A stretch of DNA of 64,000 bases, taken from IMG/VR virus record IMGVR_UViG_2944808559_000001, positions 23,109-87,108 of that record; one strand, written 5' to 3'. The notes under the pieces were generated by a model. It searched no databases and had not been told where the DNA came from. It was given only the letters and a program-made list of their open reading frames with translations. Positions 14,220 through 56,934 of this stretch are shown piece by piece (within the stretch, counting starts at the first letter, position 1; each line of letters starts with the position of its first letter). The position numbers and the translations under genes are program-made. The DNA is from a virus. Taxonomy: Duplodnaviria > Heunggongvirae > Uroviricota > Caudoviricetes.

Positions 14220-14726
14220 ATGCGACCAATAAAAATGATCACCATTCAGCAACCCTGGGCCGCGCTCATCGTCGCCGGGATCAAAGACATCGAGAACCGC
14301 ACCTGGACGACGGCCTACCAGGGACCACTCCTCATCCAGGCCGGGATCAAGATCGACCGCCGCGGGTTGCGACGGCTCGACGAGCTCGGCCTGGAGCTCG
14401 ACGCGCCGCTGCACCGCGGCGTGATCCTCGGCTCCGTCCACCTCGGCGAGATCACCCGCTCCAGCGCATCGCCTTGGGCACGGCCCTACGCGCAGCACTG
14501 GAAGCTGTCCGACCCGCAGCCCGTTGTCCGCCTGCTGGAGGCTCGGGGCCAACAGGGCCGCCTCTTCGATCCCCCTCCTGACTGGAGGCGCGCGTTCACC
14601 GAGCACGACGCCGGCACAACACGCCTGTCACGGGTGCGGGACGTGCCGGCCGACGAGGTCGCCCCCAGGTTCAGGGAGAAGGTGACCCCTGAGGCGGCGT
14701 TGCTGGCCGCCCTGAACGGGGGGTGA
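14220..14726 (+). CDS. ASCH domain protein (PUA-like)
   Basis: MITIQQPWAALIVAGIKDIENRTW is the ASCH signature. AT-rich 5' end. Divergent from terS. An alternative start is at 14235. Confidence 0.65.
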   Translation: MRPIKMITIQQPWAALIVAGIKDIENRTWTTAYQGPLLIQAGIKIDRRGLRRLDELGLELDAPLHRGVILGSVHLGEITRSSASPWARPYAQHWKLSDPQPVVRLLEARGQQGRLFDPPPDWRRAFTEHDAGTTRLSRVRDVPADEVAPRFREKVTPEAALLAALNGG

Positions 14727-15801
14727 CGGGTGCCACGTACTCGAACGAGACCACCCCGAGCCGCCTCGGGTCGAGCGACTGCTCGTGCATCCAGGCGTGC
14801 TTGCTGCTGGTGCCGAGCGTGCGATCCTGGCGCTGCATCCGCCAGCGCGGGCTGCGCGCCCGGTAGGCGTTCAGCGCCGGGTGAGCGGACACGGCACGCA
14901 GCCGGTAGCCACGCTCATACAGGTACTGCCCCATCCACTCGGTCATCCGGCCGCCGAGCGACAACCCCTGATAGTCCGGCAGCACGACCGTGCGATGCGC
15001 CATTTTCAGGTTCCTCGTGCGAGGGTGCTGGAAATGGCGGTAGCTCGTGAAAGCCGCCAATTCGCCATTCACGTACCCGGCGAAACACTGCGCGCCGCGA
15101 TGCAATTCGACGGTCAAATAGTGATGGCGGCTAAACACCTTCCAGAGGGAGCGGTCAGCCTCGTGGATGTCGAGCCGGAGCGGCGGCCGGGGTTGAACCG
15201 ACCTCCAGCTGAACGAGGCCGCGGCGACGTCGTACACCCAGTCCGGCTGCAGCCAGTCGAGCACGTCATAGTGGCAGGTCACGGCCACGAGCTGCCGGTC
15301 GCGGCGACGTACCGCCTTCTGCACCGCGTGCGAGGCGACCTTCGCCACCTGCCTGTCCACGACCGACGTGAACTCATCGATGACGACCAGGCCGTCACGG
15401 TCAGCCAGCGCCCGGGCCAGCCCGGCGCGGAACGCCTCCCCGTTCGACAGCGTGCTGAAAGGCCGCATCCACGCCGGCGGCGAGCTCAGGCCGACCGCGC
15501 CGAGCAGCGCGACGACGTCCTTGACGCTCATGCCCTTCGGGAAGTCGTCGACCAGCGCCCGGTCTGTCCACTCCTGAGCGCCGACGAGGGCCTCCGGCCA
15601 CAGCTCGCGCGCGATCGTGGACTTGCCCGCTCCGGACGGGCCGACGAGCAGGCCGACGTTCCACGGCCGCTCCTCGACGGGCATCTCCACGGACCAGGAG
15701 GTGGTCAGCTTCTCCTCGACGGGCACGTCGAACAGGCCCTGCAGTTGCAGGACTCGCGCGCTCCGCTTGACGGGAGACGACAAGGTGATCTCAGCGCGCA
15801 C
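14671..15801 (-). CDS. ABC-type ATPase domain fused to a C-terminal GNAT acetyltransferase-like domain
   Basis: Walker A GPSGAGKST, signature-like LSNGEAFRAGLARAL, Walker B LVVIDEFTSVVD and an H-loop TCHYD. The C-terminal YQGLSLGGRMTEWM matches GNAT motif A. Confidence 0.65.
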   Translation of the reverse strand: MRAEITLSSPVKRSARVLQLQGLFDVPVEEKLTTSWSVEMPVEERPWNVGLLVGPSGAGKSTIARELWPEALVGAQEWTDRALVDDFPKGMSVKDVVALLGAVGLSSPPAWMRPFSTLSNGEAFRAGLARALADRDGLVVIDEFTSVVDRQVAKVASHAVQKAVRRRDRQLVAVTCHYDVLDWLQPDWVYDVAAASFSWRSVQPRPPLRLDIHEADRSLWKVFSRHHYLTVELHRGAQCFAGYVNGELAAFTSYRHFQHPRTRNLKMAHRTVVLPDYQGLSLGGRMTEWMGQYLYERGYRLRAVSAHPALNAYRARSPRWRMQRQDRTLGTSSKHAWMHEQSLDPRRLGVVSFEYVAPVTPRSGRPATPPQGSPSP

Positions 15802-15816: not shown

Positions 15817-16443
15817 TCACATGAGTGCGCGGACCTGCCAGCCCTCGTCCGCCAGGCGCTCGAGGAGGCGGGTCTGCTCGGTCTCGTTGTCGCAGGTGAC
15901 GATGATGCCCCACACCTCGGGGCGGACGTCCTCGTCGGCGTCGCCGGGCTCGGGCAGCTCCTCGTCGTGGTCGCCCGCGCCTTCGGCGGCGATCGCGTCG
16001 GCGAGGTCGGCCAGGTCGTCATCGGTGTAACCGGCCGCGGCGAGCAGGTCGGGGTCGGCGTCGCGGACGTCGGCGAGGACCTCGGCGAGCATCCGGTCTT
16101 CCCAGCCGCCTTTCTCGGTGGTGCGGTTGTTCGCGACCAGGTACGCCTCGGCGTCCGCGTCCGAACGGGAGGACCAGCCGCGCACGATCGGCACCAGCCA
16201 GGTGCCGTCGTCGTCGATCAGGATCCCCTCGGGCGGGGACGCCTTGTCGGCGGCCATCGCCTCCAGAACCTGCAGGCGGCCGTGGCCGACGACCAGGCGT
16301 CCGGTCCGCTCGTCGAGCTCGCCGGCGACGATCGCGCCGAACGCCTCGATCGAGGCGCGGATGGCGGGCAGGTCGTGTTCCTTCGGGTTGCGGACGGCGC
16401 GCGGGATCTCGTGCAGCCGCATGTGCTCGATCCGGCGCATCAA
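15817..16443 (-). CDS. ParB N-terminal (ParB/Srx nuclease-like) domain protein
   Basis: 208 aa with ...NPKEHDLPAIRASIEAFGAIVAG...VVGHGRLQVLEA. ATGA overlap with the upstream gene. Confidence 0.55.
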   Translation of the reverse strand: MMRRIEHMRLHEIPRAVRNPKEHDLPAIRASIEAFGAIVAGELDERTGRLVVGHGRLQVLEAMAADKASPPEGILIDDDGTWLVPIVRGWSSRSDADAEAYLVANNRTTEKGGWEDRMLAEVLADVRDADPDLLAAAGYTDDDLADLADAIAAEGAGDHDEELPEPGDADEDVRPEVWGIIVTCDNETEQTRLLERLADEGWQVRALM

Positions 16444-17471
16444 CTCTCCCTGTTCTTGGGGCGGTAGCCGTACCGCTGTCGCTCGTGGCTGAGCTCACGG
16501 GTGATGAGGGCGCAGGCGAGCACGTCCCAGCACTGGGCGTCCACGGCCTCGTCGGGCACGCGCACGGATGAGCCCATGATGCGGTTCCGGCCGCCCGCCT
16601 TGGTGGGGATACCGCCGTTCGGGGCGTCCCACTCCACGGACCAGTGGTACTTCGCGGCGCGGTTGAGCCGGGGACGGCCGAGCCGTACCCGCTCCAGCTT
16701 CAGCTGCACCTGGTGGGTGTCGCCTTCAGGCATCTGCACCCAGCCGAGCACCGGCCCGGCGGCGTCCTCGTAGCTGTACCGCTTCGGACCGAACAGCGCC
16801 TGGACCAGGTCGAGGCTGATGCGGCCGTGCATCCACCACGGGTCCGTGCTGGCCCACTCGTGTTCGCGGGCCCACAGCTGCCAGCGGAGCGCCCAGTCGT
16901 CGATCGACACGTTGATCACGCGGGAGGTGTAGCCCTCGGGGATGAGTTGGCGTTGCAGCCAAGTGCCGAACCCCTGTGCGTGCAGGTACAGGGCGCCGAA
17001 CGGCCATACCCGCAGGTGCGCCGCCACGGTGTGCTCCGCGCCGGCCGCGCCGATGGAGATCTCGGCGCCGAACACGCCGAACGTCCGGCCGAGCACCAGC
17101 TGGCCGCCGAGCGTCCCGGTGGGGTGGTCCGGCCACGGGCCTGGGCTCCACGTGGTGGAGCCGAGCTTCCGCGTCCCCTCGGTGTAGCCCGGGGGGTACA
17201 CGCGGCCGGTGTACGGCTCGCCGACGTCGTAGTGCGCCGCGGGGAGGCTGCCTTGCGGTTCGGGCCGGACGCCGCAGCGGTCGCAGGTCACCCAGCGGGC
17301 CGCGTCAAGGCCGGGCTTGCGCGGGCCGTACCCGTCGACCACCGGCTTGTGGCCGCGCAGGCGGCACCACAGCCTGAGCCGGGGCACGTCGTTCCACCAG
17401 AATCCGCGGTCGAGGAGCACGCCGCGGCGGCGGCCGTCCCGCTTGAGGTAGTCGGTCGAGTGCCACCACAT
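16440..17471 (-). CDS. hypothetical protein (343 aa, Trp-rich)
   Basis: ORF track. Operonic with the ParB-like gene. Confidence 0.5.
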   Translation of the reverse strand: MWWHSTDYLKRDGRRRGVLLDRGFWWNDVPRLRLWCRLRGHKPVVDGYGPRKPGLDAARWVTCDRCGVRPEPQGSLPAAHYDVGEPYTGRVYPPGYTEGTRKLGSTTWSPGPWPDHPTGTLGGQLVLGRTFGVFGAEISIGAAGAEHTVAAHLRVWPFGALYLHAQGFGTWLQRQLIPEGYTSRVINVSIDDWALRWQLWAREHEWASTDPWWMHGRISLDLVQALFGPKRYSYEDAAGPVLGWVQMPEGDTHQVQLKLERVRLGRPRLNRAAKYHWSVEWDAPNGGIPTKAGGRNRIMGSSVRVPDEAVDAQCWDVLACALITRELSHERQRYGYRPKNRES

Positions 17472-18146: not shown

Positions 18147-18544
18147 CAGGGGCCTTCCGGTGCTGGCGGCGGGCATGCGAAAGGCCCCAGGAGACGGGGA
18201 CGCTCCAGGGGCCTAGCTCGTGATCACGTCTGAGACAAGATCATTCCCGGGGGGTTCCCGGGTGTACCGGACGCGGGAGATCGTGCGGGAGAGACGCTCT
18301 CAGCGCTGCGGATGAATCCCCCGACCGGGGGAAAACCGTGCGTACCGACACGAAACCCAGACTGATCATGAGGGTACACACGGTTGTCAAGCCGAGGCAA
18401 GATCCTGCAACCACAAGTGCGCGCTCACCTACCGCAAACCACCGGAATCGCCTGTGGGAACGGCAATGCAGCGTTTAGCGTTGGTTCAAATGACGCCGGG
18501 GCCAGGTCGCCCCAACTCACCCACGCCAAGGGGAGCCCAGAGGA

Positions 18545-19576
18545 ATGGACAACGCGATTCGAGTCACTCTTGACGATGGGGTCGATGTGATCGTCGAACC
18601 GCCAAAGCCGGATTCTTGCAGCAGCAGTGATCTTGGGAGAGCTGCGACGAAGTCGCTGATCAGGGCAATTAAGCTCTGGCGGCTGAAGTCGAACTTCGAA
18701 AGCGAGCCGCTCTTGAATCCGGCTTTCGAGCTCTGGGCCGCTCTCGCCATGGCCCGAATGGAACGCGACCACGGGCCAGAGATCGAGCTGGAGTTTGCGG
18801 CGGTACATGACGCCTCAGCCGATGGCTGGGTGGTTCGTCGTGACTCCGCCCGCGCTGGCGAGTTCCGCATCGTCCTCGTCGTGCACGCTATGCACTCCGC
18901 ATCCGCTTCCGCTCCGCTGACGGTATCCGCAGAAGTGGCCGCCCAGTCGATGATCGAGCAAAACATGGACGCTCTGCTCAATCCCACCCGACAGCCGAAC
19001 GAGGACCTGCCGATTATGGTCTACGTCGGCGGCGACGCCGACGAAGCCGCCCTGTCCCCCATCGAAGAGGCCATCAAGGGCGTGCTCGACTCCCACGAGC
19101 TCCGAATCGAGACCTCCCAGGGGCCATTCCTCGGCTCCATCGCGAAGTGGTTCAAGGCTGTTGGACGCGGCGCGCAGTCCTTGGCCGACAGTGAAATCGG
19201 CCATGACCTCGCCGCCGAAGCGCAACGTGCCATCCAGCTCCGGGCCGTGGACCTCGAACAAGCCAAGGTGGACGATGCCAAAGCGACGGCAGCCGCGAAG
19301 CTTATCGAAGCCGCCGAGCCGTACTCCGTCGTGACCATCCAGGCCGGGTCCATGCTGCTGCTGAAGGCACACGACATGCTGGTAGTCCGAGACCTGACGC
19401 CGCGGGAGATGCTCTACGTACGGAGAAACTCCCGGCTGATCACGGACCCGAAGGCACTCCTCGCGGGCCTCGACTCCTGTGAACTCCCCACGTCCATCGA
19501 CTCCTGCGAGCTGCCCAGCACGTTGGCCGCCCAGCGCCGCTCGGAGCTGACCATGGGGTTTGAGGACGTCGAGTAA
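18545..19576 (+). CDS. hypothetical protein (343 aa), lower-GC opposite-strand moron next to HNH and integrase
   Basis: GC roughly 55-60% against ~70% background. It is the only plus-strand gene in this stretch. No recognisable motifs. C-terminal DSCELPTS duplication. Confidence 0.6.
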   Translation: MDNAIRVTLDDGVDVIVEPPKPDSCSSSDLGRAATKSLIRAIKLWRLKSNFESEPLLNPAFELWAALAMARMERDHGPEIELEFAAVHDASADGWVVRRDSARAGEFRIVLVVHAMHSASASAPLTVSAEVAAQSMIEQNMDALLNPTRQPNEDLPIMVYVGGDADEAALSPIEEAIKGVLDSHELRIETSQGPFLGSIAKWFKAVGRGAQSLADSEIGHDLAAEAQRAIQLRAVDLEQAKVDDAKATAAAKLIEAAEPYSVVTIQAGSMLLLKAHDMLVVRDLTPREMLYVRRNSRLITDPKALLAGLDSCELPTSIDSCELPSTLAAQRRSELTMGFEDVE

Positions 19577-19627
19577 CCCGCCCATCCGCTGGACGCGGCC
19601 TCTTTTAGCCGTACTCCGGTGGCACCC

Positions 19628-20239
19628 CTACTCGATGGCCGCGGCGACCAGGTCGGACGGGTCGTCCTCCAGCCGCCACGGCGTGGTGGACACGCTCAGC
19701 TCCGGGAACCCGAAGTGTTCAATCTCAATGCCGAGGATCGCGGTCGGCGGACGCTCCCGGTACCGGTCGAACACGCCAACGCCGCCCGGCTCCTTGGAGT
19801 TGCAGCTCATGCACAGCAGCCCGCGGACCAGATCGGTAGCGTGGTCGTGGTCCCACACCTGCCGCGCATGCCGGCCGCCGCAGATGGCGCACCGCTCGGC
19901 CTGCCACTCGACGAGCACATCCACTGGGTCGGCGACCCGGTCAACTTCCGGGGCTTGCCAGCTCCAGCAGGCAGGCTCCGCCGCATGCAACCACTGCTCA
20001 ATCTTGTCGCGCTCCGCGTCGAGTTCAGCGTCCAGTCGGGCTGCCTCGTCGCGCTCCTCTGCGGTCCTGTGGGCCGGGCACGCCGGGTACCGCGACTGAA
20101 TCCGAGCACGGCAGGGCTTGCCCGTGGCTTTGGTCGGCCGCCCGCACTCCACCGTGCTCTCTCCCATGATCAACGCGTACGCGGACTGGAGCGTGTGCCC
20201 GTCCGGCAGGGACCGGCGCGCCGGTTCGAAGCCGCTCAC
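19628..20239 (-). CDS. HNH endonuclease (endonuclease VII-like)
   Basis: CAICGG...VWDHDHATDLVRGLLCMSCNS. Overlaps the integrase stop by 4 nt. Confidence 0.7.
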   Translation of the reverse strand: MSGFEPARRSLPDGHTLQSAYALIMGESTVECGRPTKATGKPCRARIQSRYPACPAHRTAEERDEAARLDAELDAERDKIEQWLHAAEPACWSWQAPEVDRVADPVDVLVEWQAERCAICGGRHARQVWDHDHATDLVRGLLCMSCNSKEPGGVGVFDRYRERPPTAILGIEIEHFGFPELSVSTTPWRLEDDPSDLVAAAIE

Positions 20240-21282
20240 TGCGTCCCGCCCGCGTACTGCGCCTCACCGCGGGCGAACTCCGCGCCCAGGTCGTAGGCGG
20301 GTGACCTGTCGAGCGTGTCGCGGGCGCGGTCGTAGCGGCGGGTCGTGCGGGGGTCGGCGTGCCCGAGGAGGTCCTGCACGACGTGCAGCGGGTACTTCTC
20401 CAGCAGGTGCGTGGCGATGGAGTGGCGTAGCGAGTGCGGGGAGAGCGAGTCCGCGTGCGGGATCCCGGCCTTCTTCGCGACGCGGCGCAGCTGGCGGAAG
20501 ATGGACGGCTGATCCAGCGGCTTGCCGGTGTCGGTGCGGAACAGCGGGCCGTCGTCGTTGCCGCGCTCCTCGAGGTAGCGGTCGAGGGCGACGGAAGCGT
20601 ACGGCGGGATGATGAACCGCTTCGTGTTCTCCTCGCCGCCGCCCTTCACCGGGAGGTCGATCACCCGGTGGCCCCGGTCGTGGCCGAGCGCGGACCGCTT
20701 GACTCGGATGACGCCGCCGACTCGGCACGCGGTCACCACGAGCAGGCACAGCAGCGCGTACGTGCGGGCCGTCTCATAGGTGTGGGCGTGGGCGAGCATG
20801 CGGTCCAGCTCATCCTTGGACAGGCCGCGCGTCTTGGACACGTCGGCGGTCTTCGGCCGGTCCATCTTGGTGAACGGGTTGCGCACGGCGTGGCCGGCGC
20901 GGACGAGGTAGTCGTACCAGGACGAGGCGGCGGCCAGGCGGCGCGAGCGGGTCGAGGCGGCCAGGCCGCAGTCTCGGAGTGCGGCGCCGTACAGGTCGGC
21001 TGCGGACGGTGGCACGTCGGCGGGATCCAGCCCGCGACCTTGCAGGTAGGTGATCCACCAGCCGAGGTCTTGGACGTAGCCGCGCTTCGTCGCTTCGGAG
21101 GTGCGTTTCTCGCTGGACAGCCATGCTCCGGTGGCCGCCAGCGCGTCGATGGTCATGCCGCCTCGGCGCATCAGGTCGGCGAGCTCATGTGTGGTGCGTG
21201 CGGGGGCCGTTCCCCGGAGGGTGGGGCTGGTCATGGGGGCGATCGCGGTCCCGGGGGGGATTTGTTGATCTTGAGGGATCAT
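20236..21282 (-). CDS. int: tyrosine recombinase / phage integrase
   Basis: 348 aa. Has an R...HSLRHS...LLGHADPRTTRRY catalytic tail and an N-terminal SAM-like domain. Confidence 0.85.
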   Translation of the reverse strand: MIPQDQQIPPGTAIAPMTSPTLRGTAPARTTHELADLMRRGGMTIDALAATGAWLSSEKRTSEATKRGYVQDLGWWITYLQGRGLDPADVPPSAADLYGAALRDCGLAASTRSRRLAAASSWYDYLVRAGHAVRNPFTKMDRPKTADVSKTRGLSKDELDRMLAHAHTYETARTYALLCLLVVTACRVGGVIRVKRSALGHDRGHRVIDLPVKGGGEENTKRFIIPPYASVALDRYLEERGNDDGPLFRTDTGKPLDQPSIFRQLRRVAKKAGIPHADSLSPHSLRHSIATHLLEKYPLHVVQDLLGHADPRTTRRYDRARDTLDRSPAYDLGAEFARGEAQYAGGTQ

Positions 21283-21368: not shown

Positions 21369-22001
21369 ATGCAGCGTTCCAATAGCCCCATGGACTCTCT
21401 CGAACCCGGACCTCTCTGGCGCCGACTGCGTGACCAAGAGGAGCGCAGCATCATTGCCCGCCAACTCCGAGACGCGTCGCCCACGATGGTGCTGGCTGGC
21501 ATCTTCACCAGCGTCGCCGCAGCGATCGGCATGGGGCTTCTGCTACAGCATGTCCCCGCCGTACGACCGGTCCTTGGCAGGTGGGTCATCATCGGAGTCC
21601 TTGTGACCTCCGTGATCGCAGCTTGCTGGCTGGCCTATTGGAGACACAAGAAAACAATCCGCGAGCTGGGCTTCTCCCCTGCAGACCAGCCTGCTCGCCT
21701 CCGGCATCAAATTTCACGCGTCAACAGCGCTATGACCGAAGCCGCTGAGCTGATGGACAACCTCCAGCGCGATCTGGCGGCGCAGCAAGCCGCCCGCGAA
21801 ACTCTTATCGCCGAGGCCGAACATCAGCAGCGACTGCTCGAAGTCAACAAAGTAGAGGCCGAGAAGATCCGGCTGATCATCGTTGGCGAAACCAAGCGGA
21901 GCCTCCGCACCCAACGCTTCCGTGAGTGGGGCTTCTTCCTTGCTGGGCTCGCTTTAGCCGTCCCCATCAATATCCTTTCCGACCTCATCGGACCGAAGTA
22001 G
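21369..22001 (+). CDS. membrane protein with two N-terminal TM helices, a central coiled-coil and a C-terminal TM
   Basis: 210 aa with hydrophobic segments MVLAGIFTSVAAAIGMGLLL, WVIIGVLVTSVIAACWLAYW and WGFFLAGLALAVPINIL. Plus strand, lower GC, no obvious RBS and possibly leaderless. Confidence 0.5.
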   Translation: MQRSNSPMDSLEPGPLWRRLRDQEERSIIARQLRDASPTMVLAGIFTSVAAAIGMGLLLQHVPAVRPVLGRWVIIGVLVTSVIAACWLAYWRHKKTIRELGFSPADQPARLRHQISRVNSAMTEAAELMDNLQRDLAAQQAARETLIAEAEHQQRLLEVNKVEAEKIRLIIVGETKRSLRTQRFREWGFFLAGLALAVPINILSDLIGPK

Positions 22002-38304: not shown

Positions 38305-38802
38305 TCAGGCGGCAGTGCAGGTGCAGGGGCAGGAGCATGCGGTCGCCCGGGGCAGGACGAGCCGCTCGGCGAGGTAGTGCACGACGGCCCCGTACGGGAC
38401 GCGGTGGGAGCGGTTGTGCACCTTGAAGTACGGCAGGCGACCGTTCGCCACCAGCAGATTGGCAGTCCGGTGGCTGACGCCGAGGATCTTGCTGACGTCG
38501 GCGACGCGGATCAGGTCCAGCCGCATCAGCTCGTCGAGGGGGACGGGCACGCGGTCGCGCAGCTTCGCCAGGGTGGTGCGGTAGTCGGAGCCGATCGAGG
38601 CGGCCAGCGACTTGTATCCCTCGGGGGTGACGGTGAGGCGTCGGCCGCCGCTCGCGGCGGGCCCGAGGGTGACGAGCCGGGTGTCGGTGAGGGCCCGCAG
38701 CACGTCAGCGGGAATGTCCGGGTCGGTGTCGCGGACGTCGTCCGTGCTTGCTCTCCGCAGCACGCTGAGCGCTTTCGTAGCGCGTTCTCGCTGGTCTTCC
38801 AC
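38305..38802 (-). CDS. excisionase-family/MerR-like HTH DNA-binding protein, candidate Cro/Xis-like early regulator
   Basis: C-terminal LIRVADVSKILGVSHRTANLLVANGRLPYFKV. GTG start with purine-rich RBS GGGAGGGGG. First minus-strand gene leftward of the switch region. Confidence 0.55.
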   Translation of the reverse strand: MEDQRERATKALSVLRRASTDDVRDTDPDIPADVLRALTDTRLVTLGPAASGGRRLTVTPEGYKSLAASIGSDYRTTLAKLRDRVPVPLDELMRLDLIRVADVSKILGVSHRTANLLVANGRLPYFKVHNRSHRVPYGAVVHYLAERLVLPRATACSCPCTCTAA

Positions 38803-39065
38803 GGGTCCCCCTCCCCTCCCCTCACTCGCTAGTTGATCTTGTTTGGGATGGATCTTGCGCACGTGACGAACTTAGTGCGCATCGTGCGCTTCCGTCAACA
38901 TTTGTGCGCTCTGGAGACTACTGTCATTGCCTAAGAGAACGGGCGGAATGCTTGAGAGGCCAGCATTGACAGGAAGTTCCGTACCCAAACCGCAAGTCGG
39001 CTGCTACTGTGACGCCGAAGCGCAAAGTGCGCACCTAAGCGCCAGGTAGGAAAGGGGCAAGCCTC
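38803..39065. promoter_or_regulatory. immunity switch region with at least five TGCGCA(N) motifs (38856, 38876, 38885, 38905, 39028) and GCGCAAAGTGCGCA at 39020-39033, between the divergent Xis-like and XRE genes
   Basis: Read directly. AT-richer than the flanks. A TTGACA -35-like hexamer sits at ~38968. Confidence 0.5.
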
Positions 39066-39575
39066 GTGCGAACCACCGATACACGCAACGAAGCCGCGCT
39101 CACCGAACAGGGCGCGTTCTTCAAGGCCAAGCGCACCGAACGTCTCGACGCCATGACGCTGATCCAGGCGGCCGAACAGATCTCCCGGCTCTCGCCCCGC
39201 CAGCCGATCTCCAACAGCGGCATCTCCCACTGGGAAAGCGGCCGGCGACGCGTCGACGACCGCTTCGTCGTCATGATGGCGCTCGCCTACGGCAACATCG
39301 ACCCCGAGGAGCTCGAACAGCTCGGCCGCGGCAAGGCCGCCGAATGGCTGCGCAGGGAGCTGGCCGAACGCACCGCCGAACAGGCGCACGTCGCCGACGC
39401 GCACGTGGACATCGACGCGATCATCGCTCGCCTGCAGCGCCAGCTGTCGGAGATCAACGCGCTACCCCGCACCAGCCCCGAAGCTAAGAGACGCATGGCG
39501 GAGGCGCTGCTTCGGCACCACGAGAGCGTGGCCGACATGACCGACGCCCAGCTCGGCCTCGACACCGCCTCCTGA
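39066..39575 (+). CDS. XRE-family HTH transcriptional regulator, candidate phage repressor
   Basis: 169 aa. LTEQGAFFKAKRTERLDAMTLIQAAEQISRLSPRQPISNSGISHWESGRR is the HTH_XRE pattern. GTG start with RBS AGGAAAGGGG. Plus strand, divergent from the early genes. Confidence 0.65.
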   Translation: MRTTDTRNEAALTEQGAFFKAKRTERLDAMTLIQAAEQISRLSPRQPISNSGISHWESGRRRVDDRFVVMMALAYGNIDPEELEQLGRGKAAEWLRRELAERTAEQAHVADAHVDIDAIIARLQRQLSEINALPRTSPEAKRRMAEALLRHHESVADMTDAQLGLDTAS

Positions 39576-55236: not shown

Positions 55237-56934
55237 CTACTGCTTACGTCCAGGCTGATGGTGGCGGATGAAATCCTTGTACGCCTGCCGGAACGCAGGA
55301 TCGGCGAAGCGTCGGGCCAGCTTGCGCCGCTGCTGGTCGATGACCTCGGCGTCCGGCATGCCGATCGTCAGTGACTCCTGCAGCAGCAGCGCGCCCTCCT
55401 GATCAGACAGGAGGCCGCCTTCGGGCCGGCAGCCGTGCTCGCAGGCCATAGCGTCGACGGCGCCCCACAGACGGCAGTTGTGAGCGATCCCTGAGCTGGT
55501 GACGAAGGACTCGGCGTCCTCCACCTGCAGGTCGAAGACAGGCCCCTGGTAGTCCCGCCGAACTTCCGGTGAGCGGTACTGCTCCTCGCCGGATGCTCCA
55601 GTGGCGGGCGTGTAGACGAAGGCGTCGTCGTACATGTTCTTGGTGCCGTGCCCCGGCTTGCTCCCGCGCCAGTTGGAGGGGAACAGGTGCACGTCGTAGG
55701 TGGTGCCGTTCCGGTCCGACTTATGGGCGACGTACATGCGCGGGAAGAAGCCGTTGGCCAGCGCGACGAACCCCATCTGGACGGCGAGCTGCTCGGAGTT
55801 CGTCGTCGTGCTCATATCCTTCTCGCGGAGGCACTTGCGGCCGTCTCCGAGGTCCCACGCCTCGTAGATGGCCCAGAGTTGGGCGTGAGAAAGGCGGGCG
55901 AACAGTGAGGGACGGATGCGTTTCTCCATCGCGCCGACGCCGCCGAGGGCTTTCATCAGCCGACCGAACAGTGCGGACGACACGGTCAAGGCAGAGGTCT
56001 TCCCGCGGGTGCGAATGAACTGGCTGGTGATTCCCAGCGTTTCGAGGTATTTGCCGATGCACTCCAGGATCGGCAGCTCGTCCAGGTGCATAGTGAAGGT
56101 CGCCGACTGGATCGAGGCGTTGCCCTCCGCGAGGTAGATGCCGAGCATGAAGAGGAAGTCCTCATCCACCGGGATTCGGGCGGGAATCTGCTGCATGATT
56201 CCGCGCACGGCGGCCCCGCTCGTGAAGGGCTCAAGGTGGTCGCCGACGAGCTTCCCCTGTACGAAGTCCGTCACGTCGAGGGACTGGAGGGGCGGCACGT
56301 CCTCGAAGACTCTCGGGAAGCAGAGGTAGTCGCCAGCCTGATGCTGCCGCTTGGCGATCAATTCCTCGGCCGGTCGCCACTCCGGCGCCGGCGCCTTACG
56401 CCTGTCCTTATGCCGAGCGGCGAACCACTGATGGTCAGCGGTCGACCAGCATGGCACATGTGTCCCGGTGTGCCGGACGTTGATGACCGGGCCTTCGTAG
56501 TAGCGGCTGGCGGTGGCGACGACGCGGTGGAGCTTGCCGTCCATCCCGTAGACCCGGTCTCCGGCATAGATGTCCTTGATCTGCTTCGGGCCTTCGTCTG
56601 TGTAGACCCAGGCGTCGGGCAGAAAACAGATCATCGGCCGGTCGGCGTACGTGGTGCAGCGGTCGTCCTTGAGGGCGGGGCAGGCGTAGTCGCCGTCGCG
56701 GTCGAGCTGGTCGAGCGCGTCGTCGTGGTGGGGGATGGTGACGCCGCGGGCGCGGATACGCTGCCGTTCGCGGGGGTGCATGTCGATCGGGCCGCACGAG
56801 TCGGCGCACAGGCCCTTGCAGTTCGGCTGCGGCACCTGCGCGTACAGCTCGTCCAGGCGGGCGTCGATATCGGAGCGTCGCACAAGCTCTCCAGGGTGAG
56901 GGGTAGGGGCAGAAAGAAGGGCGCGAGCCGTCAA
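55237..56934 (-). CDS. intein-containing Cys-cluster protein; the extein is a ~181-aa CxxxCxxxC...C-rich putative metal-binding protein
   Basis: TTG start per the ORF track. Contains all the canonical intein blocks. Confidence 0.7.
   Translation of the reverse strand: MTARALLSAPTPHPGELVRRSDIDARLDELYAQVPQPNCKGLCADSCGPIDMHPRERQRIRARGVTIPHHDDALDQLDRDGDYACPALKDDRCTTYADRPMICFLPDAWVYTDEGPKQIKDIYAGDRVYGMDGKLHRVVATASRYYEGPVINVRHTGTHVPCWSTADHQWFAARHKDRRKAPAPEWRPAEELIAKRQHQAGDYLCFPRVFEDVPPLQSLDVTDFVQGKLVGDHLEPFTSGAAVRGIMQQIPARIPVDEDFLFMLGIYLAEGNASIQSATFTMHLDELPILECIGKYLETLGITSQFIRTRGKTSALTVSSALFGRLMKALGGVGAMEKRIRPSLFARLSHAQLWAIYEAWDLGDGRKCLREKDMSTTTNSEQLAVQMGFVALANGFFPRMYVAHKSDRNGTTYDVHLFPSNWRGSKPGHGTKNMYDDAFVYTPATGASGEEQYRSPEVRRDYQGPVFDLQVEDAESFVTSSGIAHNCRLWGAVDAMACEHGCRPEGGLLSDQEGALLLQESLTIGMPDAEVIDQQRRKLARRFADPAFRQAYKDFIRHHQPGRKQ
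55477..56628 (-). mobile_element. intein (384 aa) with LAGLIDADG homing endonuclease
   Basis: N-splice ...RPMI|CFLPDAWVYTDEG, block B TADH, LAGLIDADG motifs LGIYLAEGN and AWDLGDGRK, C-splice FVTSSGIAHN|C. Confidence 0.7.

What the first reader, a model, noticed from the sequence alone, without database searches (positions are those of the whole stretch)
18200..19576. Lower-GC, opposite-strand orphan gene (343 aa) beside HNH and integrase, a candidate lysogeny-expressed moron or defence gene
18545..19576 is the only plus-strand gene in a ~20-kb minus-strand stretch. Its GC is clearly lower than the surroundings. It is preceded by a ~350-bp low-GC non-coding region (18180-18544) and sits next to the integrase/HNH pair, the position where actinophage prophages typically carry prophage-mediated defence or lysogenic-conversion genes. 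The protein has no recognisable motif and ends with a duplicated DSCELP(T)S element.
Basis: partly seen in the sequence, partly recalled or inferred. Interest (0 to 1): 0.65.

Follow-up and report, generated by a model that had tools for sequence, protein, structure and literature searches.

The report
Prophage accessory gene with novel domain
A real, low-GC gene kept at one fixed spot in a small group of Nonomuraea prophages encodes a fast-evolving front half that probably resembles a bacterial pore-forming "death effector", joined to a conserved, undescribed back-half domain found in over a thousand actinobacterial proteins; this makes it a plausible but untested prophage defence gene.

Summary
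The ORF at 18545-19576 (+) is a genuine gene in a Nonomuraea maritima prophage. It has lower GC than its neighbours and a ~370-400 bp non-coding leader, and it converges on an HNH/integrase pair. It is not the only plus-strand gene nearby. It is also not a sporadic moron: five related Nonomuraea (pro)phages keep it in the same slot.

No Pfam, PHROG, PADLOC or NCBIfam model hits it, but it has two modules:
- **Residues 1-~115** evolve at dN/dS ~1. They show weak, collinear profile-profile similarity to Trypco1/"Pepco" (CU044_2847). Characterised Pepco (a Trypco2 protein) is a protease-released pore-forming immune effector.
- **Residues ~150-309** are a conserved domain without any library model ("X"). 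It occurs in about 1,100 protein clusters; those I could name are actinobacterial. It is nearly always C-terminal, behind at least 78 unrelated N-terminal modules (NACHT/NB-ARC, Trypco1, EACC1, SPFH, STAS, CSD, HTH).

My best reading (confidence ~0.35) is a lysogen-expressed, single-chain latent membrane effector whose X domain acts as latch or sensor, giving superinfection exclusion or abortive infection. Expression, toxicity and trigger are all inferred. Chromosomal X relatives sit in ordinary neighbourhoods, so a regulatory role remains a serious rival.

The parts
18545..19576 (+). Complete CDS, 343 aa plus stop: the gene in question
   Evidence: ORF list; coding GC pattern; 100% match to an N. 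maritima protein; homologues aligned
18545..18889 (+). N-terminal module, residues 1-~115: beta-hairpin, two helices and a beta-sheet. Fast-evolving, probably a divergent Trypco1/Pepco-like domain.
   Evidence: dN/dS 1.0-1.15, with Fisher p .029-.0001 against the rest of the gene. Pfam Trypco1 E=.064 for the homologue P0004. hhalign against a CU044_2847 alignment gives prob 60%, E 9e-5 over 81 collinear columns, and 1 of 300 column shuffles reaches that score. Low-confidence AF2 topology.
18890..18991 (+). Ser/Ala-rich linker (HSASASAPLTVS) and a connecting helix, residues ~116-149
   Evidence: Alignment A1; pLDDT below 50 at residues 117-126
18992..19471 (+). Conserved C-terminal domain 'X', residues ~150-309: an ACT/ferredoxin-like b-a-b-b unit, a long helix, a 3-stranded sheet and 3 short helices. 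No library model exists for it.
19472..19516 (+). Tandem DSCELP(T/S) duplication in the C-terminal tail, residues 310-324. The tail runs on to residue 343.
   Evidence: 27-nt direct repeat D3; residue positions; both copies are kept in P0002 and P0003 and partly in P0004-P0006; pLDDT below 50
18177..18544 (.). Divergent intergenic region, 63% GC, between the leftward 108/118-aa gene and the ORF
18372..18500 (+). Conserved non-coding element upstream of the ORF (..CACGSTTGTCAAG.., GCAAYCRCRAKTGCG, GRGAACGGCRAT, CTAGCGTTG, AATGACGCC). Presumably a promoter/operator or leader.
   Evidence: Conserved in L001, L002, L003 and L010/L015. Unique in the window. The only other viral-contig match is the N. 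endophytica provirus. No covariation support for an RNA fold.
18529..18536 (+). Ribosome-binding site AAGGGGAG, 8 nt before the ATG
   Evidence: Sequence; GGGAG is conserved in L001 and L002 and GGAG in L003
18182..18214 (.). GC-rich hairpin (12-bp stem, 9-nt loop) between the conserved element and the leftward gene. Possibly a terminator or insulator for minus-strand transcription.
   Evidence: Inverted repeat I13; kept in L001 and L002 with a compensatory C-G to T-A change

Best explanation
The gene is a conserved, independently transcribed accessory gene of a lineage of Nonomuraea temperate phages. It encodes a single-chain 'effector plus latch' protein.

- **Front module.** Residues 1-~115 are a rapidly diversifying, divergent Trypco1/Pepco-like module. 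Characterised Pepco (a Trypco2 protein) is a latent beta-barrel pore-former that kills the cell once its C-terminal tail is removed.
- **Back module.** In place of a short tail and a partner peptidase, the phage protein carries a Ser/Ala linker and the conserved X domain. I infer that X is a regulatory or sensor domain holding the N-terminal module inactive.
- **Proposed action.** The lysogen makes the protein from its own promoter, on the same strand as the CI-like repressor. When X senses a cue of infection, or the linker is cut, the N-terminal module is freed and damages the membrane. The result would be superinfection exclusion or abortive infection that protects the lysogen population.

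Shown here: the gene is real, it has two modules, it is syntenic across relatives, its composition is skewed, its evolutionary rates differ by module, and the X family has many different fusion partners. Inferred, not shown: expression in lysogeny, pore formation, the latch role of X, and the trigger.
For: - **Gene reality and conservation.** Coding signature and RBS are present. The gene holds the same slot in five (pro)phages, while the integrase is only ~36% identical and the HNH gene is absent in the others.
- **Strand logic.** The HTH_31 CI-like gene (39066-39575) is also on the + strand. Structural, recombination and integrase genes are on the - strand.
- **Own regulatory region.** A conserved ~115-nt upstream element is unique to this locus.
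- **Persistently low GC3.** Every family member checked, whether phage-borne or chromosomal, has low GC3 relative to its locus.
- **Fast-evolving front half.** N-terminal dN/dS is 1.0-1.15, against .24-.42 for X and .10-.54 for six neighbouring genes. In one phage (P0006) the N-terminal module is swapped while X and the slot are kept.
- **Trypco1 link.** A bona fide Trypco1-X fusion exists: P0011, Pfam E 1.4e-13. The homologue P0004 gives a sub-threshold Trypco1 hit covering 82 of 98 model positions. hhalign of the N-terminal profile against seven CU044_2847 proteins gives prob 60% and E 9e-5 over 81 collinear columns, and only 1 of 300 column shuffles scores as high.
- **X partners include conflict-system parts.** These are NACHT, NB-ARC, EACC1, Trypco1, SPFH, pentapeptide repeats and TM segments.
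- **Known biology of the relatives.** Pepco and EACC1 are experimentally shown protease-gated pore-forming defence effectors (bioRxiv 10.1101/2025.11.14.688446).
- **Precedent in actinophages.** Prophage-expressed defence genes are documented (PMC6426596, PMC6426606).
Against: - The ORF itself gives no PADLOC, PHROG, Pfam or NCBIfam hit.
- The Trypco1 similarity is below Pfam's threshold (14.3 bits against 24.6) and the HHalign probability is only 60%. Direct comparison with the characterised SsPepco, which is Trypco2, is not significant.
- No trypsin- or caspase-like peptidase is adjacent or found among the window proteins scanned. Four of seven canonical Trypco1 genes have one next door.
- The most frequent named X partners are regulatory (STAS, CSD, TetR_N, HTH) rather than toxic.
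- Close chromosomal relatives sit beside glnA or gyrA/DUF3566, not in defence islands.
- dN/dS ~1 could reflect relaxed constraint rather than an arms race. It rests on three sequences and a simple counting method.
- The X domain was not found in any of 50,697 isolated phage genomes.
- There are no expression data.
Confidence: 0.35

Rival explanations
1. It is a non-toxic signalling or lysogenic-conversion protein. On this reading X is a generic ligand-binding or oligomerisation domain of one-component-type regulators. The phage copy would modulate host physiology or gene expression in the lysogen, without killing cells or blocking phages.
For: - The commonest named N-terminal partners of X are signalling or nucleic-acid-binding domains: STAS 7, CSD 4, TetR_N 3, HTH_31 3, plus kinase, GreA C-terminal, RRM and RNase III.
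- X begins with an ACT/ferredoxin-like unit, a fold typical of small-molecule-binding regulatory domains.
- Chromosomal relatives are solo genes in ordinary neighbourhoods.
- Only 2 copies occur in the one complete genome I could query.
Against: - The phage N-terminal module has no DNA-binding or signalling signature, and its best match is Trypco1.
- dN/dS ~1 and the module swap in P0006 are unusual for a housekeeping-type regulator.
- X also follows NACHT/NB-ARC, EACC1 and Trypco1.
Confidence: 0.2
2. The gene serves the phage's own life cycle. It would be a sensor-gated membrane effector or regulator used at induction or lysis (holin-like timing, killing of the host on induction, or control of the divergent late operon), not defence against other phages.
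For: - It is conserved in every relative at the head of the late (ParB-like, ABC/GNAT, terminase) operon and shares a divergent control region with it.
- Purifying selection on X points to a function the phage needs.
- A Pepco-like pore-former could in principle act like a holin (inference).
- A second low-GC plus-strand membrane/coiled-coil gene with a weak spanin-like PHROG hit lies 1.8 kb away.
Against: - It is transcribed opposite to every lytic gene and convergent with int/HNH. Lytic read-through would therefore be antisense to it.
- The protein has no TM segment.
- X relatives are overwhelmingly chromosomal, and none occurs in isolated phages.
- The lysis cassette lies outside the window, so a link to it could not be examined.
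Confidence: 0.2
3. It is passenger DNA: a horizontally acquired gene of lower-GC origin that is merely tolerated (a classic moron), or an addiction-type selfish gene with no benefit to phage or host.
For: - GC and GC3 are clearly below those of neighbours.
- The N-terminal third evolves neutrally.
- Mobile DNA sits alongside: the HNH gene is present only in this phage.
Against: - The gene is present at the same position in all five related elements despite deep divergence.
- X is under purifying selection (dN/dS .12-.42), and the tail repeat is kept in the three closest phages and only partly in the more distant homologues.
- The upstream element is conserved.
- Low GC3 is a trait of the whole family, including old chromosomal copies, so it does not mark a recent transfer.
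Confidence: 0.1
4. It is the phage immunity repressor or another DNA-binding switch protein, given its divergent arrangement beside the integrase.
For: Its position is divergent from an operon and near the integrase.
Against: - No HTH or other DNA-binding signature is detected.
- A separate CI-like HTH_31 gene sits divergent from the HTH_17/YqaJ/RecT early operon at 39066-39575.
- The N-terminal module varies freely between phages that share the upstream element.
Confidence: 0.03

Closest known systems
Trypco1 / 'Pepco' (Pfam PF19493; NCBI 'CU044_2847 family protein'), the small partner of trypsin-like peptidases in actinobacterial and cyanobacterial conflict systems (Kaur et al. 2020, PMC7159879; Evans et al. 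2025, bioRxiv 10.1101/2025.11.14.688446)
   Same: - The order of elements matches: an N-terminal beta-hairpin (xIRVxLDDGxxVIVE against LxRIPLEGGGxxLVE), a helical segment, then a P-[DE]-E-[IV]-x-[LV]-E-F strand and amphipathic strands.
- hhalign is collinear over 81 columns.
- A genuine Trypco1-X fusion, P0011, exists in the same X family.
- Both occur in Actinomycetota.
   Different: - The match is below Pfam's threshold.
- The module is fused to a ~230-residue C-terminal region instead of carrying a ~20-residue tail.
- There is no neighbouring peptidase, whereas 4 of 7 canonical loci have a trypsin-like neighbour.
- It is carried by a prophage.
- The biochemically characterised Pepco is Trypco2, and the ORF shows no significant similarity to it.
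Prophage-mediated defence genes of actinobacteriophages (for example Sbash gp30/31 and CarolAnn; PMC6426596, PMC6426606)
   Same: - It is a temperate actinophage gene on the opposite strand to the lytic genes, near the integrase.
- It has no known family.
- It has lower GC and is plausibly expressed from the prophage.
   Different: - No sequence relationship to these genes was looked for or found.
- Expression and defence were not tested here.
- The gene is conserved across the phage lineage rather than variable.
- The integrase is internal to the prophage, so the 'attP-proximal cargo' logic does not apply.
EACC1 and other protease-gated latent effectors (Evans et al. 2025)
   Same: One X-family member, P0016 from N. 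jabiensis, carries an EACC1 N-terminal match (27.7 bits against a cut-off of 23.6) followed by X. It lies near GmrSD, UvrD-like and nSTAND1-WD40 genes. This suggests X can sit behind pore-forming modules.
   Different: The window protein has no EACC1 match, no TM helix and no caspase-type neighbour.
C-terminal sensor or regulatory domains of single-chain signalling and immune proteins (ACT-type regulatory domains; sensor arms of STAND NTPases)
   Same: - X is a constant C-terminal module behind many different 'output' domains, including HTH-NACHT and NB-ARC.
- Its first sub-domain is ferredoxin/ACT-like.
   Different: - There is no significant sequence or whole-domain structural match to any solved protein.
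- The helical and 3-strand sub-domain has no identified counterpart.
- No ligand is known.

Membership tests
Trypco1 / Pepco (PF19493, CU044_2847) | Sequence match to the family model at or above the curated threshold | tested here: not met
   No Pfam or NCBIfam hit for the window protein at E<=0.1-10. The best among homologues is the P0004 N-terminus at 14.3 bits against a cut-off of 24.6.
Trypco1 / Pepco (PF19493, CU044_2847) | Remote homology by profile-profile comparison across the whole domain | tested here: inconclusive
   hhalign of A7 against A9 gives prob 59.8%, E 8.8e-5 and 81 collinear columns. One of 300 column-shuffled controls reaches the score, and the reversed control scores 13.5 against 31.1. 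Against the P0011 Trypco1 segment the result is prob 45%, E 2e-4. Both alignments are shallow.
Trypco1 / Pepco (PF19493, CU044_2847) | Encoded next to a trypsin-like (or cysteine) peptidase that activates it | tested here: not met
   No peptidase family appears among the neighbours or any window protein scanned. Among seven canonical loci, four have a trypsin-like peptidase as the next gene.
Trypco1 / Pepco (PF19493, CU044_2847) | Small stand-alone protein (~90-120 aa) with a short cleavable C-terminal tail | tested here: not met
   The protein is 343 aa, and the module is followed by a linker, the X domain and a tail.
Trypco1 / Pepco (PF19493, CU044_2847) | Forms an oligomeric beta-barrel and permeabilises membranes after activation | not testable with these tools
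   This needs multimer modelling or biochemistry.
Prophage-mediated defence gene (functional class) | Carried by a temperate phage or prophage | tested here: met
   The same element carries terminase, SPP1-type portal, P22-type coat, RecT/YqaJ, RusA, an integrase and a CI-like HTH. The N. endophytica relative is listed as an IMG/VR provirus.
Prophage-mediated defence gene (functional class) | Transcribed in the lysogen | not testable with these tools
   There is only indirect support: the strand is shared with the CI-like gene and a dedicated conserved upstream element exists.
Prophage-mediated defence gene (functional class) | Protects against heterotypic phage, or matches a known defence family | tested here: not met
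   PADLOC gives no hit at E<=1. Protection itself cannot be tested here.
Moron (sporadic, independently transcribed insertion) | Deviant base composition and its own transcription signals | tested here: met
   GC z = -2.7 and GC3 z = -2.4. The gene has a separate upstream region. No consensus sigma-70 promoter was found by the simple scan.
Moron (sporadic, independently transcribed insertion) | Present in some but absent from other closely related phages | tested here: not met
   The gene is present in the same slot in all five related elements available.
CI-type immunity repressor | DNA-binding (HTH) domain | tested here: not met
   No HTH family is detected. A distinct HTH_31 candidate lies at 39066-39575.
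Unnamed 'X' domain family (defined here) | Matches the family profile, with the conserved GS..F, RAxELxxxDxxQAxVD and IQxGSxLLxK..VRxLTxxE motifs, located at the C-terminus | tested here: met
   Profile search; alignments A1 and A3 with invariant S198, G268, K274, L284 and P302; C-terminal placement.

The most novel reading that the evidence does not exclude
X is an undescribed sensor or 'latch' domain of Actinomycetota that turns whatever sits in front of it into a self-contained, peptidase-independent switch. Its partners would include pore-formers such as Trypco1 and EACC1, STAND NTPases, and perhaps decoy copies of housekeeping domains (STAS, CSD, GreA, RNase III, kinase). On this reading the Nonomuraea phages have captured a Trypco1-X version as a one-gene abortive-infection or exclusion toxin. 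That would be a new class of single-chain immune effector, and the first Pepco-type effector known to be carried by a virus.
Probability: 0.15. Interest if true: 0.8.

Novelty: new variant of a known kind. Interest (0 to 1): 0.55.

Why it matters
If the reading is right, a temperate phage carries a Pepco-type pore-forming effector that has swapped its partner peptidase for a built-in regulatory domain. That would extend the newly described protease-gated effector logic to a protease-independent, virus-borne form.

Independently of the phage, the analysis delimits a domain of ~160 residues with no Pfam or NCBIfam model and no solved relative. It is present in more than 1,000 protein clusters, behind a very wide range of N-terminal modules. 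This gives a concrete, testable entry point into an uncharacterised piece of actinobacterial signalling or immunity.

If the rival regulatory reading is right, the gene is an ordinary hypothetical prophage accessory gene, and only the domain definition has value.

Tried and rejected
- **Phage and plasmid searches.** DNA and protein searches of 50,697 phage genomes found nothing for the region, the protein or a typical X protein. PLSDB plasmids gave only the mislabelled N. gerenzanensis chromosome. An IMG/VR scan with a broad-family motif found nothing.
- **Family libraries.** Pfam, PHROGs, PADLOC and NCBIfam give no hit on the full protein.
- **YbaB/EbfC idea.** I suspected the helix plus 3-strand plus helix part of X resembled YbaB/EbfC, on the basis of topology and a weak P0011 hit.
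- **Direct comparison with SsPepco (Trypco2).** Not significant.
- **Death-domain-like adaptor idea.** I considered X as a homotypic adaptor with many paralogues per genome. This is not supported: only 2 copies occur in N. gerenzanensis.
- **Structured RNA in the leader.** There are no credible Rfam hits, and RNAalifold gives a positive (unfavourable) covariation term.
- **Repeated operators.** The conserved upstream motifs do not recur elsewhere in the window beyond chance.
- **Immunity repressor reading.** Rejected: no HTH, and a separate CI-like gene exists.
- **Antisense ORFs.** The ORFs at 18815-19585, 18517-18987 and 18425-18808 were rejected on codon-position GC.
- **Searches that returned little.** Two word-index homology searches were unproductive.
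Full report
**Source and observation**

The window comes from Nonomuraea maritima contig JBICUH010000011.1 (318 kb), read in reverse. The product of 18545-19576 is identical to an NCBI 'hypothetical protein' of that species.

The ORF is real. Its codon-position GC is .67/.44/.78, the expected high-GC coding pattern, while the overlapping antisense ORFs show the mirror image or no pattern. An AAGGGGAG ribosome-binding site lies 8 nt before the ATG. The C-terminal two thirds are under purifying selection.

The gene's GC is 63.3% and its GC3 is 78%. Forty-three other genes of the element average 69.7 +/- 2.3% and 89.6 +/- 4.7% (z = -2.7 and -2.4). The upstream non-coding stretch is 368-398 bp at 63-64% GC. 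The DSCELP duplication is present at residues 310-315 and 319-324, from a 27-nt tandem repeat.

Two details of the original finding are wrong:
- The gene is not the only plus-strand gene in the area. An ASCH gene at 14220-14726 and a 210-aa membrane/coiled-coil gene at 21369-22001 (GC3 .71, even lower) are also plus-strand.
- The integrase is not at an edge of the element.

**Context**

The element is a bona fide prophage:
- To the left, on the minus strand, lie a ParB-like gene, an ABC-ATPase/GNAT fusion, small and large terminase, an SPP1-type portal, minor capsid protein 2 and a P22-type coat protein.
- To the right, on the minus strand, lie the Endonuclease-VII-type HNH and the tyrosine integrase. 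Beyond them are RusA, a Band_7 protein, RecT, YqaJ and an HTH_17 gene.
- An HTH_31 CI-like gene at 39066-39575 is divergent on the plus strand.

The plus strand is therefore the strand of the likely repressor. The ORF lies between the end of the early/integrase unit and the start of the late unit. It is divergent from the late unit and convergent with HNH/int.

**Relatives in phages**

Only eight proteins are close homologues, all from Nonomuraea or unnamed metagenome assemblies. In N. wenchangensis, N. angiospora, N. endophytica (also an IMG/VR provirus) and one Logan contig, the gene occupies the same slot. It sits on the opposite strand directly after the ParB-like gene or its small neighbours. 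Meanwhile the integrase is only ~36% identical or undetectable by similarity, and the HNH gene is absent. So this is a lineage-conserved accessory gene, not a sporadic moron.

A ~115-nt non-coding element just upstream (window 18372-18500) is conserved even in the distant relatives. It is unique in the window, has no Rfam match and shows no covariation support for an RNA fold, so it is most simply promoter or operator DNA.

**Two modules**

An exhaustive profile search shows that residues ~150-309 belong to a family found in 1,112 representative clusters at E<=1e-3, and 376 at E<=1e-10. I call this domain X.
- Among the best 153 proteins, X is at or near the C-terminus, with a median of 4 residues after it.
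- It occurs alone in proteins of 150-190 aa, or behind highly diverse N-terminal regions. The 115 regions of at least 50 aa fall into 78 BLAST clusters.
- Named partners are STAS (7), CSD (4), SPFH/Band_7 (4), TetR_N (3), HTH_31 (3) and NACHT (2). Single cases include NB-ARC, protein kinase, FhaA_N, GreA C-terminal, RNase III, RRM, MFS, pentapeptide repeats, DUF4287, DUF6232, EACC1 and Trypco1.
- Source organisms that could be named are Streptosporangiales and Pseudonocardiales.
- No Pfam or NCBIfam model covers X.
- With a 61-sequence alignment, AlphaFold gives pLDDT 77 overall and above 90 in the core. The model shows a ferredoxin/ACT-like b-a-b-b unit, a long helix, a three-stranded sheet and three short helices.
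- Conserved polar positions are S198, R228, Q239, D243, S269, K274, R282 and E288.

**The N-terminal module**

Residues 1-125 are shared only by the phage copies P0001-P0005. The N. endophytica phage has a different, DUF349-like N-terminus in the same slot.

Among the three closest phages, dN/dS is 1.0-1.15 for residues 1-125. It is .24-.42 for X and .10-.54 for six neighbouring genes. The excess of non-synonymous changes is significant (Fisher p = .029.0027 and .0001).

The motif order recalled Trypco1, so I tested that link in steps:
- One X-family member, P0011, is a genuine Trypco1-X fusion (Pfam E 1.4e-13).
- The N-terminus of homologue P0004 gives a sub-threshold Trypco1 hit spanning 82 of 98 model positions (E .064).
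- I built an alignment of seven annotated CU044_2847 (Trypco1) proteins from Streptomyces and Nostoc plasmids.
- hhalign against the phage N-terminal profile gives probability 60% and E 9e-5 over 81 collinear columns.
- Only 1 of 300 column-shuffled controls reached that score, and the reversed control scored 13.5 against 31.1.

I regard the relationship as probable, not proven. Membership fails on Pfam's threshold, on the missing peptidase neighbour and on size.

**What is known about the relatives**

Kaur et al. defined Trypco1/2 and EACC1 as partners of peptidases in actinobacterial and cyanobacterial conflict systems (PMC7159879). [quoted passage not shown] They also showed that EACC1 forms pores after cleavage (bioRxiv 10.1101/2025.11.14.688446). 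Prophage-expressed defence genes are well documented in actinophages (PMC6426596, PMC6426606).

**Interpretation**

The best-supported reading is a lysogen-expressed single-chain effector. A diversifying Trypco1-like module is held in check by the conserved X domain, which replaces the tail-plus-peptidase arrangement. It would fire on an infection cue and cause exclusion or abortive infection.

Only the anatomy, synteny, composition and evolutionary rates are shown. Expression, pore formation, the latch role and the trigger are inferred.

The main counter-evidence is as follows:
- The most frequent named X partners are regulatory domains.
- Close chromosomal relatives sit beside glnA or gyrA.
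- There is no PADLOC hit.
- The X domain was not found in isolated phages.

A non-toxic signalling role and a role in the phage's own induction or lysis therefore remain serious rivals. A low GC3 is shared by every family member examined, phage-borne or chromosomal. It is therefore a family trait, not proof of recent transfer into this phage.

**Verdict**

The gene is best described as a new variant of a known kind: a Trypco1-like module coupled to an undescribed domain and carried by a prophage. Interest is moderate (0.55). The delimitation of the X domain is the most solid new result, and the defence mechanism is a testable hypothesis.

Noticed in passing
window 21369-22001 (+): This is a second low-GC plus-strand gene (61% GC, GC3 .71) just beyond the integrase. 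The 210-aa product has hydrophobic segments and a coiled coil. It gives a weak PHROG 'Rz-like spanin' hit (7e-5) and a weak Rv2743c hit. Homologues lie on the same strand in the distant relatives L003 and L009/L010. It may be a companion lysogeny-expressed or exclusion gene.
   Followed up: partly
window 20236-21282 (-) and the whole element: The tyrosine integrase lies in the middle of the prophage, with terminase and capsid genes on one side and RecT/YqaJ/RusA on the other. Three other Nonomuraea genomes show the same order. So attP is not next to int, or another recombinase integrates the phage. No tRNA gene is present in the window.
   Followed up: partly
window 19628-20239 (-): The Endonuclease-VII-type HNH gene between the ORF and the integrase is present only in this phage. 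In L001 the integrase converges directly on the ORF. This looks like a free-standing homing-endonuclease insertion.
   Followed up: partly
window 18372-18500: A ~115-nt non-coding element is conserved across phages whose proteins are only ~55-60% identical. It includes a near-palindrome, GCAATCGCGATTGC, in the N. endophytica phage. It is unique in the window. Its only other IMG/VR match is the N. endophytica provirus. There is no Rfam hit and no covariation support.
   Followed up: partly
window 18182-18214: A GC-rich hairpin (12-bp stem) lies ~36 nt upstream of the annotated start of the leftward 108-aa gene. It is kept in L001 and L002 with a compensatory change. It may be a terminator or insulator for minus-strand read-through across the ORF.
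   Followed up: no
window 39066-39575 (+) and 38305-38862 (-): An HTH_31/HTH_3 CI-like gene is divergent from an HTH_17 gene that heads the YqaJ-RecT early operon. This is the likely immunity switch of the prophage.
   Followed up: partly
window 55237-56934 (-): A 565-aa CxxCxxCC-domain protein is interrupted by Hint and LAGLIDADG matches, which indicates an intein. DUF2786/DUF7168 and DUF6349 genes lie nearby, so the right third of the window also looks mobile or phage-like.
   Followed up: no
window 14671-15801 (-): This encodes a fusion of an ABC-type ATPase and a GNAT acetyltransferase (PHROG 11143, E 2e-101). It is conserved next to the terminase in all related phages, and its function is unknown.
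   Followed up: no
window 16440-17471 (-): A 343-aa minus-strand gene of the same length as the ORF under study has no family hit. Its dN/dS is relatively high (.43-.54) between the three close phages, and it is absent from the distant relatives.
   Followed up: no
L007 8001-8978 (N. jabiensis, P0016) and L017 2923-3681 (P0011): These are chromosomal X-domain proteins fused to EACC1 and to Trypco1 respectively. The EACC1-X gene lies near GmrSD_N, UvrD-helicase, a protein kinase and nSTAND1-WD40 genes. Neither locus shows an adjacent peptidase.
   Followed up: partly
L001 6801-7618, L002 6418-7373 and L015 11367-12283: A plus-strand PadR-family gene and its downstream partner appear at different positions in related phages: between ABC/GNAT and ParB in two of them, and after the X-domain gene in the N. 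endophytica phage. They are absent from the window phage.
   Followed up: no
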